Source of the DNA: Flaccisagitta enflata
Taxonomy: Eukaryota
Length of the DNA stretch: 64,000 bases
Assembly: GCA_965153355.1 (NCBI GenBank)
Contig: OZ231126.1
Span: forward strand, 35,588,001-35,652,000
Direction of reading: 5' to 3'
Shown here: positions 40,100-45,851 of the stretch, piece after piece
Layout of the letters: each line of letters begins with the position of its first letter
Position numbering within the stretch: position 1 is the stretch's first letter
Position numbers and translations under genes: made by a program
The notes under the pieces: model-generated
What the model was told of the DNA's origin: nothing
The model's input: only the letters and a program-made list of their open reading frames with translations
Database searches by the model: none

Positions 40100-40325
40100 T
40101 TGTGTGTGTATGTGTCGGTGTGTTGTTTGGCTCTGCCTCCGTCTTTTCCCTGTAAAGCTCGCCTACGCGTTTATCAATCAATTCGCGTAATTTTTTTTTC
40201 CTCCGAAATGCATTCGCGGTTGCAAGTAAACGCATTGGCGAACATGAAATCGTCATGGGAAAAGTTGTTGCACATGATTCGTCATCTTATAGACCGACTC
40301 ATATTTTCCATACAAACGTAAATAT

Positions 40326-40628
40326 TGTTAGGTGCCAGTCTCACCTGGTACATGATGATGATAAGCAGGTAATGCTGAATGGAAAGGGGGAGAATGCTCG
40401 TAAGTAAAGGGCCACGCGGTAAGGGTAGTAATGGTAATGGTAATCAGTATAGGTCAGGAAGGAAACGCGCACACCATATCAGAACGTCCTGTAAATATGA
40501 GAACGACAGTTTGAATAATGACACGAGCGAAGACAGATCCAATGACAGCATCAGGAGATGACAGGAATGACAGAAACACGGTACAAATGATAACGGGAAA
40601 GTAAAGTGGCATGAATGAACCTCTAACA
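40326..40628 (-). repeat. 3' LTR (303 bp, internally deleted)
   Basis: Preceded on the - strand by the PPT; lacks the segment equivalent to 45325-45432. Confidence 0.95.
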
Positions 40629-40631
40629 GCT

Positions 40632-40645
40632 ACTCCCCCCTTTCC
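40632..40645 (-). promoter_or_regulatory. Polypurine tract
   Basis: GGAAAGGGGGGAGT just before the 3' LTR on the - strand. Confidence 0.85.
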
Positions 40646-42276
40646 ATTCGATCGACCCGAGCAAATTAAAAATGACTCAAGTCAAATCAGTAAAAATGAA
40701 AAATTATGATCCGGTTGGTAAAAAGAAATTACAACATGTATGACAAAAAAAGTTACATGTTCCGTAAATAAAACTCGTCAAGAAAGAATACTATAAGACT
40801 AAGAAAACTGGCACAAACTTCAGATTTGGTTTTTTTTTTTGTTTTTTTTTTAGAGAATGTAAAACGCGTTTGTCATGGTAGTGCCCCAGAGGTCCCTTTT
40901 TGTTTTTTTTTTTCTTCAATGATCGTAATACCCCTTCTTCCACGATCGAACAGCGACAAACAGTTTCCCAAGGACGCTCCATCGAAACCCACGCCGGCGT
41001 CCTGATTTTGCTGCCACCGCGCCAGGGCGATTTCAGCTCACTTCTTGACAAGTTATGTCTTCAGAGCTGTGATCGCCATGAGAATCGCCCCAATCTTCTG
41101 TCTTCATTCTTGATCTCGATTCCTCTGATGATCCATGACAGTGAATGTCACTTGACAAAGTTCTTGACGGGGCTTTAGACATGCAGTAGCGGCGTTTTGG
41201 GTGTATACCCAACAGCTACTGGCACGTACTAACAAACAGAGGGTGATGACGTGCCTTAGTTATCAAATTGAATCATGTCACTAGCTCACCAATGAAGGGG
41301 GCAACCCTGAATCTGGCGTGCCATGCTGATCCAATGTGATACCAAAAAGGCACAGAGGACCGGAAGAGGTCAGAGAGTGTAATCTCGTACCACCCCCATG
41401 GGAACTCACGCTCCAAGGTAAAAACTATGAATTCTTGAGACACTTGAAAAGTCTTGATGGGGACTCCAACCGTCGTGAGTGATCGCCTCGATCACTCAGA
41501 TCACTCACTCAAGAGATGGCTGTGGTGGAACAGCCGCAAATGAGGTTAAGATAAGTTAAAGGATGGTTAGACAGGGTGGGTGACACCTAAAATCTCACCC
41601 AGTGTGACAATCAACCAAATCAACAATGTCACTTCAGGAAAAACCGGTATAAATTTCTTTAAATGACATGTAGCGGGAAACGCCTTAGTCTCAATCTCCC
41701 GATGATGGGGCACAGTTAAAGAGTAGAGCAACTGTGACACACACAGATCAACAAGTTGACAGGATGTGTAATCCATTATCTCATAAATCCGGTGACAATC
41801 ATGTTAATCAACACACATGCGCCACACCTTAGATCTAGTAAAACAGATAATTCCCCCAAACAAACTTCTCATACAGACAGAACCCAACCTGGATCGCCGA
41901 GTCAATGGATAATGACTGGTTCCTCTGTCAACGATAGGGAGCAACCCCCGGGGGTGATTAGATCTGAGCAATAGGAGAAGTGAAATTGATGCATATTCTC
42001 GCAAAATTAGAGGATGATGATTGTTGATTGACCGACCACAGGTGGTGAGGAGTGTGGGTGCATAGATGGTAGTGTTAGTAATAGTCAAACTGGGTCAACC
42101 AGTACAAACACGGATAAAAAAGCGGCGTATTACGTATCCCGTTGTTGGTCCACCTCAGTGTTCGGGCTGGGGAAAGCATGCTTGGTTTATGAAGACAACG
42201 TTATGATTTCGGATATCCGTGACTAAAATGAGCTCTTAACTACAAAGTTTAATTTGTACAGAGAGCAGAGTAAAAC

Positions 42277-42421
42277 AGTGCGTGTAAACACATAGTGCAG
42301 AAGTTAACAATGTGTGTGAACACAGTGCAGATGTTAACAATGTGTGTGAACACATAGTGCAGAAGTTAACAATGTGTGTGAACACATAGTGCAAAAGTTA
42401 ACAATGTGTGTGAACACATAG
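42277..42421. repeat. ~30-bp tandem repeat (4-5 copies) in the 3' non-coding region of the LTR element
   Basis: AGTGCAGAAGTTAACAATGTGTGTGAACAC(AT) repeated. Confidence 0.85.
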
Positions 42422-42673
42422 TTTGTGTATTAATACAACAGTGCAAGAGACTAGCTAAGTCAGACTATGTGTGAGCAATATACAGTGCTGGAGAAGCGCC
42501 GAGACCATAATTATTTTAGGCAGGATATGCCATGTCTCGGAAAAGGGGAATCGAGGTTAGTAGTGCAGCCAAGGACAGGACATGTCAAAACACACAGTTC
42601 CGGGGTCATAGAGATAAGAGAAAGGGAGCAGGTCTTTAGTGAGAAGGAGGGATGTGTGTGGGGAGGCATAGAG

Positions 42674-44470
42674 TTAGAACTCAAGCCAGTTGTCTCCACA
42701 ATCCACATTTGCCGCCGCCTCAGACTTAAATGATGATCTCCCCTTCCTGGTTGATTGGTAACGAAGAGTGATGTCGTAGGCTCGTTTGATGCATTGCTTG
42801 TCCGTAGGCATGCTCATCTTGATTTGGTCTTGGTAGTCTTTGGGAAGACCACTGATGAAGCGGATGAAGTAAGCATCCAATTTGGCTTTTGATCCATCCA
42901 GAAGGTTGGTCTCAAAAGAGTCCACATACTGCTTCACCTTAGAGCAGTATGTGTGAAGAGATTCCTTGGACTCATCCCAGGTGTAAGCGCGGAGGTTGCA
43001 CTTCCACTCTGCCCTGATTATAGGGTCTTCATACTCCAACTTGAGCTCTTTCTTCAGTGCAAGCCAATCAGTGTTCTTGTGGACACTGCGGTTCCAGATT
43101 GCAAAGGCTTCAGGTCCAAGGTAATTGGGAAGCCATTCTAGGCAATAACGGAAATGTCTTCTTCTAGAGTGGGGGTTCACCCCTTTCTTCACACCAGTCT
43201 CAAACTTATCCACCCAGATGGCAAAGACCTGTTTGGAGTTGTGATCAAATTCCTTGACTCCTGGGAGCTTGTGGCAGACTTGTTCCGGGAGCTCGCGGTT
43301 GTAAGCATAACCATCAGTTGGGTCATCTTCCTCAGAGTCAGAGTGACGGTGAGAGCGTTGGGACCTAGGCCTGCGTGTCCTAGTGCGACGTCTACCACTG
43401 CCACTGGCATGATCCTGTGAACCATCAGTTTCTGATACATCACTGTGAGGTCTTCTTGTATTGGCCAAGCCCTGATCAGAAACGATTGACTGAGTGGGGA
43501 CAAGGGCTCCATTTTGGGGTGCACCCAATCGCTGCATGGGAGCCTGGGGTCCTTGGGCAGCGGAAGGTTGTGGTACAGCTTGAGCAGGCAATGAGTTTTG
43601 GTGCCCAAAAGCTATGGGAGCATACCCAGAGTGCATAGGGGTGGGTGCACGGGCTCTTGGAGTACTATGGTTAGACCACGCATTCAATACCCTGACTGCG
43701 GCTGAGGGTGGATGTCCTGAGGGAAAGACAGCCGCTATGGGTGGACCTGAGGCTGCTGAGGATGGGCCTGGGTTAGCTGAGGTTGGGCCTGGAGCTGCTA
43801 GGAATGACCCTGCCACAACTGAAGGTGGGATCGAGCCTGTTTGACTTCCTGGAGAAGGTAGCACAATGTTTAGCAAGTTGGGCGGTGGAGCCCTAGGCGC
43901 ACCTGCAAGAACACTGGGGGCCATCAAGGATCCACTCAGAGGTGGCGCAACCGAATTGCTGACGGGGGTCACCGTCGTGGTGACCACTAGGGATGCAACT
44001 GTGGGCTGGGGAGCTCCCCCAGATGGCGGTGGACCTGCGGGCTGAGAAGCCCCCCCAGATGGTGGTAAACCTGCGGCCAAGGCTGAGGCTGAGACACCCC
44101 CTTGACCTGACGGAAAGGCGTTGAGGGTGGCACTGTTGGGAGGTAATCCCGCTATGTTGGGAGCTTGCAGTCCCTGAGCGCTGTTGGCTGCCATCATCTG
44201 ATTCATATGCCGTATGAGATTGTCCATTTGACGCTCCATGCGGTCCATGGATGTTTGCTGCTGTTGTATGGCGGTCTGTTGTTGTTGCATAGCAGTCTGT
44301 TGTTGTTGCAAGGCTGCTTGTTGCCGAATAATCAGCGGCTCGAGGTTATTCATATTTTGGGGGGGTTGACCCCCAACACCACTCACGCTCGCAGCGGTGC
44401 CTGCGGAGGAGCCTGCGACGACATTAATCGGAGGGTTTACCCCCGGAGGTGGAGGTGCTGCAGTGGACAT
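42674..44470 (-). CDS. gag: Gag-like protein, 598 aa from first ATG
   Basis: Uninterrupted ORF inside the LTRs. The C-terminal ~200 aa has a retrotransposon capsid pattern (WVDKFE...W.ALKKEL...ESLHTY...FISGLP). No CCHC knuckle. Confidence 0.85.
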   Translation of the reverse strand: MSTAAPPPPGVNPPINVVAGSSAGTAASVSGVGGQPPQNMNNLEPLIIRQQAALQQQQTAMQQQQTAIQQQQTSMDRMERQMDNLIRHMNQMMAANSAQGLQAPNIAGLPPNSATLNAFPSGQGGVSASALAAGLPPSGGASQPAGPPPSGGAPQPTVASLVVTTTVTPVSNSVAPPLSGSLMAPSVLAGAPRAPPPNLLNIVLPSPGSQTGSIPPSVVAGSFLAAPGPTSANPGPSSAASGPPIAAVFPSGHPPSAAVRVLNAWSNHSTPRARAPTPMHSGYAPIAFGHQNSLPAQAVPQPSAAQGPQAPMQRLGAPQNGALVPTQSIVSDQGLANTRRPHSDVSETDGSQDHASGSGRRRTRTRRPRSQRSHRHSDSEEDDPTDGYAYNRELPEQVCHKLPGVKEFDHNSKQVFAIWVDKFETGVKKGVNPHSRRRHFRYCLEWLPNYLGPEAFAIWNRSVHKNTDWLALKKELKLEYEDPIIRAEWKCNLRAYTWDESKESLHTYCSKVKQYVDSFETNLLDGSKAKLDAYFIRFISGLPKDYQDQIKMSMPTDKQCIKRAYDITLRYQSTRKGRSSFKSEAAANVDCGDNWLEF

Positions 44471-45282
44471 ACTGCCGTAGATTGAAGGTTGATTCGTAAA
44501 AAACACAATGAAAGTCACTAAAATCACCAATTGTGCAATTGCTGCACAAAGTACAAGTCACAGTAAATATCACAAGTGTGAAGCCAAATTTGCTAAAACA
44601 AGTTTTTCATTTATCGGATTTTTAAGTATGGTGTACGCGTTTCCAGAGTAAATGTCAATTGTCACAGTCAAGTCTTGAAGGATGAATAGAGACGTTCTGA
44701 AGATGTGAGAAGCGAAGACGACGTAAAATGTACACAATTTACAGCATGGGTTTGGACCCAGTGGTAGAATGCATGTGTAATGTAGAAGGAAGACATTGAA
44801 GTGTCCCGTCCGAAATTTTCCGCCACCATCCGAACACGGCAGATCTCGCGTCTGCAGTGGGTCCAGGGCCGCAAAGATTAATTGAGGAGTACAACGAGGT
44901 ATGGAAGTGGACGTCAAGAGGGAAGGAAATCCCCGGATGCGAGAGTACCAGAGACATCCAAAGTGTCAACCTTTGCCACGGAGGTAGAACTCCCCAGAAG
45001 ACACTTAAGTTGGCTTGCAACTCGTAAGTCGAATGGCCCTCCGGTCTGAACACCAGTCAGGGTTAAGTCAGGCGCTCTATCCACCAGGAGGATGCGCGTC
45101 GTCCAGCCAGGGACTTAACATGAAATTGCAAACATCCTCGGCGATGGTTGGTCAGCCAAGTCAAACACAAGCGGTGCCAGCCGACCATAAGCGAAATATC
45201 TGTCACAGGCCTATGGAATAAGCGGAATCAAAGAGGTGGGTGGGCGGCGGGCTCGTCCCCGACTGCCATGTACAGTCAGAGA

Positions 45283-45297
45283 CCGGTTGATGCACCA
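45283..45297 (-). promoter_or_regulatory. Primer binding site, tRNA-Gly-like
   Basis: TGGTGCATCAACCGG, 2 nt after the 5' LTR; complementary to a ...GATGCACCA tRNA 3' end, resembling tRNA-Gly(GCC). Confidence 0.75.
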
Positions 45298-45299
45298 GA

Positions 45300-45710
45300 T
45301 GTTAGGTGCCAGTCTCACCTGGTAGAGGGTCGCGTAGAGATGGTATCTCTATAATGTCTGTACAATGATGAGGAAATCATCTGGGAAAGGGAGAAGGCAC
45401 AAGTATGTATATGACGCACTGGTAACGATGTACATGATGATGATAAGCAGGTAATGCTGAATGGAAAGGGGGAGAATGCTCGTAAGTAAAGGGCCACGCG
45501 GTAAGGGTAGTAATGGTAATGGTAATCAGTATAGGTCAGGAAGGAAACGCGCACACCATATCAGAACGTCCTGTAAATATGAGAACGACAGTTTGAATAA
45601 TGACACGAGCGAAGACAGATCCAATGACAGCATCAGGAGATGACAGGAATGACAGAAACACGGTACAAATGATAACGGGAAAGTAAAGTGGCATGAATGA
45701 ACCTCTAACA
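45300..45710 (-). repeat. 5' LTR (411 bp)
   Basis: TG...CA inverted termini, adjacent to the PBS; identical by eye to the other LTR apart from 108 extra bp. Confidence 0.95.

Positions 45711-45851
<141 letters not shown>

What the first reader, a model, noticed from the sequence alone, without database searches (positions are those of the whole stretch)
40326..45710. Young gag-only LTR retroelement with all cis signals intact but no pol
Seen: LTRs identical by eye apart from one indel, a perfect ATAT TSD, PBS, PPT and a stop-free 598-aa Gag. The ~2 kb after gag shows no ORF over ~100 aa and no recognisable PR/RT/RNaseH/IN motif. Established: gag-only LTR elements (TR-GAG) are described from plants. 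Inference: this is a recently mobile animal satellite retroelement that makes its own capsid and borrows Pol from a helper, rather than a decayed full-length copy.
Basis: partly seen in the sequence, partly recalled or inferred. Interest (0 to 1): 0.8.

Follow-up and report, generated by a model that had tools for sequence, protein, structure and literature searches.

The report
Helper-dependent retrotransposon with shortened capsid protein
This is a young copy of a small jumping-gene family in a marine animal that has lost its copying enzymes and the tail of its shell protein, keeps the shell part under selection, and swaps sequence with a few full-length relatives on which it depends; the same shortening arose several times in the same genome.

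Summary
Observation confirmed: 5,385-bp minus-strand LTR element, LTRs identical over 303 bases apart from a 108-bp deletion, ATAT duplication, PBS, PPT, open 598-aa Gag, no pol remnant. It is one of 12 gag-only copies; 8 have LTR pairs with 0-9 mismatches and different 4-bp duplications. Three pol-bearing Ty3/Gypsy relatives (15-20 kb) share its LTR ends and PBS. The capsid is under purifying selection (dN/dS 0.16), and leader and gag segments are swapped with helpers. Two more families in this genome end Gag at nearly the same point; one origin is rejected. Best reading: a satellite whose short Gag co-assembles with helper Gag/Gag-Pol (inferred), rather than building its own particle. Gag-only LTR families are published for plants and zebrafish, so this is a new variant. 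The repeated tail loss is the novel part. No earlier scan note matched this sequence.

The parts
40322..40325 (.). target-site duplication ATAT (left)
   Evidence: 4-bp duplications in 7 other copies with LTR pairs
40326..40628 (-). 3' LTR, 303 bp, lacking a 108-bp block near its 3' (U5-side) end; terminal 22 bp kept
   Evidence: 303 of 303 aligned bases identical to the 5' LTR
40633..40645 (-). polypurine tract, 4 bases before the 3' LTR; one base differs from the helper's in that spacer
41599..41698 (-). short block retained from the helper's non-coding spacer between pol and ORF3 (73-75%)
   Evidence: L041, L047, L048
41746..42292 (-). 550-bp block retained from the helper's non-coding spacer after pol (80-81%); candidate cis element, function untested
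   Evidence: families B and D keep pieces of their helpers' spacer too, none found for family C
42290..42430 (.). short tandem array of about 27-28-bp units in the non-coding region after gag
   Evidence: read from the sequence; length varies in public runs (joints)
42674..44470 (-). gag, 598 aa: Q-rich coil near the N terminus, long P/A/G/S linker, Arg-rich patch, capsid, short family-specific tail
42674..42718 (-). family-specific end of gag, where DNA homology to the helper stops; the stop falls just before the helper's conserved coil
   Evidence: junction bridged by contigs of runs X1 and X4 (table 8)
42710..43306 (-). capsid domain (about aa 389-587), two-lobed helical retro-capsid fold
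   Evidence: AlphaFold model mean pLDDT 80.8; all listed Foldseek rows are retroviral, Arc, Ty3 or Copia capsids or their domesticated forms, best E 2.3e-3, none at E<=0.001; Retrotrans_gag E 0.015, under cut-off
43346..43405 (-). Arg-rich patch in front of the capsid, kept in short and long Gags; possible RNA-binding or localisation site (inferred)
44471..45299 (-). 5' leader; 98% identical to full-length copy L040 but 85% to L038/L039
45283..45297 (-). primer-binding site, identical to the helpers'; 13 of 15 bases pair with the 3' end (plus CCA) of a tRNA-Gly-like arm found in the genome
   Evidence: the name tRNA-Gly is recalled, ARAGORN gave an undetermined tRNA with anticodon gcc(a) at 1 of 4 such loci
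45300..45710 (-). 5' LTR, 411 bp, TG...CA
45711..45714 (.). target-site duplication ATAT (right), followed by an (AG)n microsatellite

Best explanation
A young insertion of a non-autonomous Ty3/Gypsy satellite family. An ancestor of the helper lineage lost the Gag tail, pol and ORF3 but kept LTRs, PBS, leader, capsid-coding gag, part of the 3' spacer and the PPT (shown). The family has since amplified by retrotransposition (shown by distinct duplications and near-identical LTR pairs). It uses protease, RT/RNase H and integrase from 15-20 kb full-length elements with the same ends (inferred from shared cis signals). Its short Gag is a working protein (shown by selection). Most likely it co-assembles through capsid contacts with helper Gag/Gag-Pol and favours packaging of the RNA it is translated from (inferred). 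Satellite and helper RNAs then meet in one particle, which explains the segment swaps (swaps shown; the route is inferred).
For: Copies: 12 loci share the gag-only layout and Gag end; 8 of 12 have both LTRs with 0-9 mismatches and 8 different 4-bp duplications. Helper: only 3 of 40 scored RT matches are >=91% identical to the family's RT, the next is 76%. They carry RT-RH-IN, an identical PBS, shared LTR termini, a near-identical PPT, a GGGAAAC slippery site at the gag end and 4-bp duplications. Selection: capsid codons 398-575 in 11 copies show 46 synonymous and 27 replacement changes on 114.5 and 419.5 sites, ratio 0.16, p=2e-14. Among variants absent from two helpers, shared ones are 14 S/5 N (0.10, p=1.7e-6) and singletons 9 S/13 N (0.39). 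The gag frame is open in 9 of 12 copies, while only 40 of 179 gap events in the 3' non-coding region are multiples of three. Exchange: this copy's leader and gag codons 1-200 are 97-99% identical to full-length L040, codons 201-460 only 66-83%; gag-only L037 is 87-96% identical to helper L038 at codons 251-550. Leaders sort with helpers, not with the satellite capsid: 3 copies are 98% to L040 and 5 copies 94-98% to L038/L039. Precedent for a cis-acting truncated Gag product: mouse IAP 1-delta-1 (PMC6466679, passage read).
Against: Co-assembly and cis-preference were not tested. Gene conversion between chromosomal copies could also produce the mosaics. 'Private' variants were judged against only two helper copies, so an unsampled autonomous lineage could supply the constrained capsid; the strictest subset (codons 398-520) has only 4 S/2 N shared changes, p=0.02. 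Each of the three full-length copies has an interrupted gag or pol in this assembly, so no intact helper was seen. The Arg-rich patch before the capsid is kept, so the short Gag may still bind RNA and assemble alone. The role of the lost tail is inferred from composition; no Gag of this clade has a CCHC knuckle.
Confidence: 0.7

Rival explanations
1. One reading: the short Gag builds complete particles alone and packages its own RNA, needing only helper enzymes.
For: The capsid fold is intact and under selection; the N-terminal coil and the Arg-rich patch are kept.
Against: The helper pol follows a slippery site at the gag end, so enzymes should enter as Gag-Pol, and any productive particle is already mixed (established for frameshifting LTR elements; recalled). 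The conserved tail is absent. Swaps with helpers suggest helper RNA in the same particle.
Confidence: 0.12
2. The short Gag is a defective-interfering or restriction protein: it poisons helper capsids, and is kept by selection on the element or the host to hold the autonomous lineage down, like yeast p22/Drt2.
For: Satellites outnumber full-length relatives 12 to 3. Truncated Gag proteins restrict Ty1 through capsid contacts (PMC10951436, passages read). Young gag-only ERVs can serve the host (PMC12067270).
Against: The family itself keeps retrotransposing and recombining, which needs productive particles. In family C, singleton variants are near neutral (0.77, p=0.31) and shared ones constrained (0.23), which points to selection during replication rather than on resident copies. 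In this family singletons are intermediate (0.39).
Confidence: 0.1
3. The gag is a passenger: the family moves as a non-coding parasite, and the low dN/dS is inherited from autonomous donors through recombination.
For: Recombination with helpers is frequent. The linker ratio is higher (0.45-0.5). 3 of 12 copies have a frameshifted or gapped gag.
Against: The satellite capsid is far from the helpers seen (dS about 0.93-0.96 to L038/L039) yet differs little in protein (dN 0.055). Variants absent from helpers are mostly silent. The stop position and tail are conserved in 11 of 12 copies while the adjacent non-coding DNA has up to about 50 gaps per comparison.
Confidence: 0.07
4. One-off deletion or assembly artefact.
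For: The 108-bp LTR deletion was seen in no other LTR listed and not in the listed joints of four public runs, so that feature alone may be private or artefactual.
Against: 11 further loci share the structure. Contigs of two independent runs bridge the capsid-to-tail junction.
Confidence: 0.01

Closest known systems
TR-GAG elements of plants (PMC4350172; abstract, passages and Discussion read)
   Same: LTRs, PBS, PPT, one gag ORF, no pol, several copies with different duplications, recent activity.
   Different: Animal host; 5.4 kb against generally <4 kb; 4-bp against 5-bp duplication; Gag cut after the capsid (TR-GAG1 has a zinc finger). A matching helper is found here, whereas none was found for TR-GAG1. 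The word 'selection' does not occur in that paper's main text.
Pol-less Athila families of Arabidopsis (PMC2410132; passages and section 8 read)
   Same: Ty3/Gypsy families without pol, with gag under purifying selection, mobilised in trans and linked to autonomous families by recombination. This is the closest match in logic.
   Different: Plant; often keep env. No repeated loss of the Gag tail in the passages read.
Zebrafish BHIKHARI Bik-1/Bik-2 (PMC12067270; passages read)
   Same: Animal, young, multi-copy, polymorphic LTR families with gag and neither pol nor env.
   Different: Described as endogenous retroviruses; Gag called full-length; no pol-bearing copy in the reference; developmental role shown there, none tested here.
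Bdelloid Vesta/Juno/TelKA elements and TelKA2n (PMC5408684; passages read)
   Same: Full-length elements with a DEDDy-exonuclease-like ORF3, as the helpers here (Atlas score 0.94, PF01612 in 19-34% of members). [quoted passage not shown]
   Different: Those have CCHC knuckles and dUTPase; none found here. TelKA2n keeps an env-like ORF and is mentioned in one sentence of the passages read.
Mouse IAP 1-delta-1 (via review PMC6466679, passage read; the primary paper was not held)
   Same: Deleted non-autonomous form that out-transposes its helper; its truncated Gag product acts in cis.
   Different: Retroviral; makes a gag-pol fusion rather than a tail-less Gag; one subtype.
Ty1 p22 and Drt2 restriction factors (PMC10951436; passages read)
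   Same: Truncated Gag acting on full Gag through capsid contacts; Ty1's nucleic-acid chaperone region lies C-terminal to the capsid, where the lost tail lies here.
   Different: p22 lacks the capsid N-terminal lobe; Drt2 is a fixed relic. Here both lobes are kept in a mobile element.

Membership tests
TR-GAG | LTRs, PBS and PPT | tested here: met
TR-GAG | single gag ORF and no RT/pol | tested here: met
TR-GAG | several copies with different target duplications | tested here: met
   8 of 12 copies with LTR pairs, 8 different duplications
TR-GAG | short length (generally <4 kb; search filter 1-6 kb) | tested here: inconclusive
   5.35-5.75 kb for copies without inserts; above the usual size, inside the filter
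TR-GAG | 5-bp target duplication | tested here: not met
   4 bp in 8 of 8
TR-GAG | plant host | tested here: not met
   Wnt genes in the host genome
Ty3/Gypsy (Metaviridae), through the helper | pol order PR-RT-RH-IN after gag | tested here: met
   RT, RH, IN over cut-off in order; protease weak, E 0.012
Ty3/Gypsy (Metaviridae), through the helper | retro-capsid fold of Gag | tested here: met
   best E 2.3e-3, all listed rows capsids or capsid-derived
Ty3/Gypsy (Metaviridae), through the helper | placement in a named clade by RT phylogeny | not tested
   no reference RT set was on hand
Vesta/Juno (rotifer) type | DEDDy-like ORF3 | tested here: inconclusive
   Atlas lead 0.94; no Pfam or PDB sequence hit
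Vesta/Juno (rotifer) type | CCHC knuckle in Gag and dUTPase in pol | tested here: not met
   no CCHC in 28 Gags printed; no dUTPase Pfam hit
BHIKHARI (Bik) | gag only, no pol or env, recently mobile in an animal | tested here: met
BHIKHARI (Bik) | endogenous-retrovirus lineage, sequence kinship to Bik Gag | not tested
   Bik sequences not fetched; the helper has Ty3/Gypsy-type Pfam domains
Gag-derived restriction factor (p22/Drt2 type) | lowers transposition of the full-length element | not testable with these tools
   needs experiment

The most novel reading that the evidence does not exclude
Loss of the Gag tail right after the capsid is a repeatable satellite strategy of this Ty3/Gypsy clade: each autonomous sub-lineage spawns a pol-less family whose tail-less, frameshift-less Gag is selected as a cis-acting entry ticket into helper particles, while the family keeps its leader matched to current helpers by recombination. 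It arose at least three times in this genome (stops 37-63 aa after the same capsid motif against 214-284 aa in 17 of 17 pol-bearing loci), and the same short ends recur in 6 of 10 short-tailed public protein clusters looked up.
Probability: 0.4. Interest if true: 0.72.

Novelty: new variant of a known kind. Interest (0 to 1): 0.5.

Why it matters
Why gag-only LTR elements keep their gag is left open in the TR-GAG and Athila papers. Here satellite, helper, selection and sequence exchange are visible in one genome. Independent families cut Gag at nearly the same place, which marks the capsid as what a satellite must keep and the coil/Arg-rich/frameshift tail as what it can drop. That gives a natural deletion series for Gag functions in a knuckle-less Ty3/Gypsy clade, and a direct test between cis-packaging and interference. 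It also warns that RT-based surveys miss such families: 12 gag-only copies against 3 with pol.

Tried and rejected
Pol remnants after gag: none. Pfam on the whole Gag gave only coil and low-complexity noise under cut-off. A perfect-match primer tRNA: a 13-base pattern gave 10 sites; ARAGORN found no tRNA at the 6 examined. Expression: 4 short contigs of one metatranscriptome (X12) lie on the element, one with no differences at 43022-43270, but contigs cannot show transcription, so this is not used. Insertion polymorphism: one X1 contig covers the left flank, stops at 40324 and runs on 23 unaligned letters that were not shown; a hint of an empty site only. Helper ORF3/ORF4: no Pfam or PDB sequence hit. 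Word-index homologue search gave 7 unnamed proteins, none with this short tail among the 4 read (tails of all 7). Metagenome locus scan gave 3 loci: one short-tailed with no pol hit in the 748 bases that follow, one long-tailed with pol, one running into repeats. One short-tailed public protein (P0016) sits in a cluster whose other 2 members are long-tailed, so it looks like a one-off; 3 of 10 clusters were singletons. Complex prediction was not run: capsid pairs would pass by likeness to solved structures. The repeat finder on the whole window was swamped by microsatellites. Earlier scan notes: none by place or sequence; three by words, on other kinds of pol-less LTR elements, not used.
Full report
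Observation. The element lies on the minus strand at 40326-45710 (5,385 bp). The 5' LTR is 45300-45710 (411 bp) and the 3' LTR 40326-40628 (303 bp). They match at 303 of 303 aligned bases; the 3' LTR lacks a 108-bp block near its U5-side end, joined at a 3-base microhomology. A deletion in one LTR only most likely arose after insertion (inference from how LTRs are copied); whether it disables this copy is unknown. ATAT flanks both ends, and PBS and PPT are in place. Gag is open for 598 aa. The region after it has no stop-free frame over 98 aa and no tblastn hit at E<=1 to three Pol proteins, the helper Gag C-terminal part or two helper 3' ORFs. The host is an animal, and the best-sharing public runs are organism A and marine metagenomes.

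Copies. A search with 667 bases of gag gave 26 matches. Twelve loci, the window included, share the gag-only layout and Gag end; one of them (L032) stops 12 codons early after a frameshift. Eight of the 12 have both LTRs in the stretch read, with 0-9 mismatches and eight different 4-bp duplications. L028 and L029 share flanks and probably count once. Contigs of runs X1 and X4 bridge the point where homology to the helper ends, so the junction exists outside this assembly.

Helper. Three longer elements (about 15, 17 and 20 kb) have a Gag 85-88% identical in the capsid, then RT, RNase H, integrase and a FLYWCH finger. An RT search found only these three at >=91% among 40 scored matches; the next was 76%. 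They share the LTR termini, the PBS exactly, the PPT but for one base, and 4-bp duplications; their LTR pairs differ by 6, 3 and 0 bases. Their gag ends in a GGGAAAC slippery site (the -1 frameshift reading is recalled knowledge). Each is interrupted in this assembly: pol lies in two frames in L038 and L039, and L040 has a 4.8-kb insert in gag. The satellite keeps two blocks of the helper's non-coding spacer behind pol (73-81%), so it is an internal-deletion derivative of this lineage.

The satellite Gag ends 58 aa after the capsid's GLP motif; helper Gags run 264-284 aa. Lost are a heptad-repeat stretch (coil read by eye), an Arg-rich and G/N/S-rich region, an acidic end and the frameshift site. 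No Gag here has a CCHC knuckle, so the lost region is the likely counterpart of the nucleic-acid chaperone region that lies behind the capsid in Ty1 (PMC10951436; inference). What is kept folds as a retro-capsid: mean pLDDT 80.8, best Foldseek row the Copia capsid at E 2.3e-3, all listed rows capsids or capsid-derived, none at E<=0.001. An Arg-rich patch before the capsid is also kept, which weakens any claim that RNA binding is lost.

Selection. Across capsid codons 398-575 in 11 copies (L037 left out as helper-like) there are 46 silent and 27 replacing changes, ratio 0.16, p=2e-14. To limit the imprint of helpers I took 10 copies (L029 and L037 left out) and only variants absent from L038 and L039: shared ones are 14 S/5 N (0.10, p=1.7e-6), singletons 9 S/13 N (0.39, p=0.03). 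The strictest stretch, codons 398-520, gives 4 S/2 N (p=0.02). The frame is open in 9 of 12 copies; L031 and L032 have frameshifts near the ends and L033 an assembly gap. The neighbouring non-coding DNA is full of indels, 40 of 179 a multiple of three. Against L038 and L039, capsid dS is 0.93-0.96 and dN 0.055. An unsampled autonomous donor remains possible.

Exchange with helpers. This copy's leader and gag codons 1-200 are 95-100% identical to full-length L040, while its LTR is 72-90% and codons 201-460 are 66-83%. Over 800 bases from the PBS, 3 satellites are 98% identical to L040, 5 are 94-98% to L038/L039, and one is mixed (9 measured). L037 has a helper-type capsid in front of the satellite tail. 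Template switching between co-packaged RNAs is the simplest route; gene conversion is not excluded.

Recurrence. Of 58 loci with a related capsid (chosen, partly for short open frames, so not a random sample), 17 have pol within 3.5 kb and all 17 have tails of 214-284 aa. Of the 41 without pol, 29 stop 37-63 aa after the motif (families A 12, B 7, C 10), 2 stop at 3, 2 at 113-115, 1 at 173, and 7 could not be measured. In a capsid tree of 47 rows (two broken, two near-duplicate and the seven unmeasured loci left out) the gag-only label needs 6 changes, at least 4 forced by well-supported branches; one origin is rejected, p-AU 2.5e-5. L037 and L065 add to that count; families A, B and C still each sit beside different pol-bearing relatives. 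Family C shows the same signature (shared 0.23, p=0.002; singletons 0.77); family B's low ratio (0.09) probably includes divergence from before the deletion. In public proteins, 56 of the top 69 could be measured: 16 end at 37-63 aa, 12 at 79-152 and 28 at 172-270. Six of 10 short-tailed clusters looked up repeat the same end in several contigs. These lack genomic context and could be single broken loci sequenced many times.

Mechanism. Shown: structure, amplification, a matching pol-bearing lineage, selection on the capsid, sequence exchange, repeated tail loss. Inferred: the short Gag is made without frameshifting, joins helper Gag and Gag-Pol through capsid contacts and brings its own RNA along, as reported for the truncated product of mouse IAP 1-delta-1 (PMC6466679); helper enzymes then copy and integrate the satellite. 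I put helper-dependent satellite with a working Gag at about 0.9, and the full mixed-particle reading at 0.7.

Known kinds and novelty. Gag-only LTR elements are described in plants (TR-GAG, PMC4350172; pol-less Athila with selection and recombination, PMC2410132) and animals (zebrafish Bik-1/2, PMC12067270; rotifer TelKA2n, PMC5408684). I read passages or named sections of these, not whole texts or supplements; PMC13524379, PMC3983883, PMC3286476 and PMC12440569 were searched by term and added nothing that bears on the claim. It works like a TR-GAG but fails that family's 5-bp duplication and plant host. Ten literature searches listed no paper whose title or abstract start describes repeated, selected loss of the Gag tail in mobile pol-less families; most subscription journals, Repbase and Dfam were not searchable. 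Verdict: real, new variant of a known kind, interest 0.5; the clade-wide strategy, if true (0.4), would merit 0.72.

Noticed in passing
L038+L048 (G000:C8:51747006-51762398), L039+L047 (C6:39028790-39046103), L040/L041/L111 (C3:81914308-81934574): Full-length helpers carry a FLYWCH zinc finger at the Pol C terminus and a long ORF3 with a DEDDy-exonuclease-like N-terminal part. One search for FLYWCH with integrase/gypsy listed no paper whose title or abstract start describes such an element. L038 and L039 have pol in two frames; L040 has an insert in gag; LTR pairs differ by 6, 3 and 0 bases.
   Followed up: partly
L111, L112, L114, L115, L116: 5 of 6 stretches read behind pol in this clade hold a 1,230-1,340-aa ORF3 (none in L113); the C-terminal two thirds have no Pfam hit in the helper copies scanned.
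   Followed up: partly
L040:3240-8055 and L036:5556-7561: Inserts of about 4.8 kb and 2 kb with TAG...CTA inverted ends and 8-bp duplications, hAT-like by recalled criteria.
   Followed up: no
L063, L064, L077, L079-L083, L085, L087 (family C); L045, L046, L049, L050, L057, L088, L089 (family B): Two further pol-less families with Gag ending 49-63 and 37-40 aa after the capsid motif; 8 of 10 family C loci have LTR pairs, but only 1 of 7 family B loci showed one within the stretch fetched.
   Followed up: yes
L090, L091, L065, L094, L095, L096: More distant pol-less elements; L091, L094, L095 and L096 have LTR pairs 97.5-99.7% identical. L090/L091 keep the coil after the capsid and stop 113-115 aa after the motif.
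   Followed up: partly
L028 and L029 (G000:C2:39.01 and 39.09 Mb): Two copies share 3' flanks and probably come from one segmental duplication, so independent insertions number 11 at most among the 12.
   Followed up: partly
L099, L103, L104, L107: Solo LTRs of the family with 4-bp duplications, two of them split by inserts.
   Followed up: partly
G000:C4:75.77-76.13 Mb (L073-L076): Repeated clusters of 8-14 different tRNA genes, several units about 5.3 kb apart.
   Followed up: no
L035:997-2763: Uninterrupted 589-aa frame with a diacylglycerol-kinase catalytic domain about 760 bases from a satellite copy.
   Followed up: no
window:19763-20329 and window:61815-64000: Long inverted repeats (273-bp arms, 93%; 300-409-bp arms, 85-91%), possibly MITE or foldback elements.
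   Followed up: no
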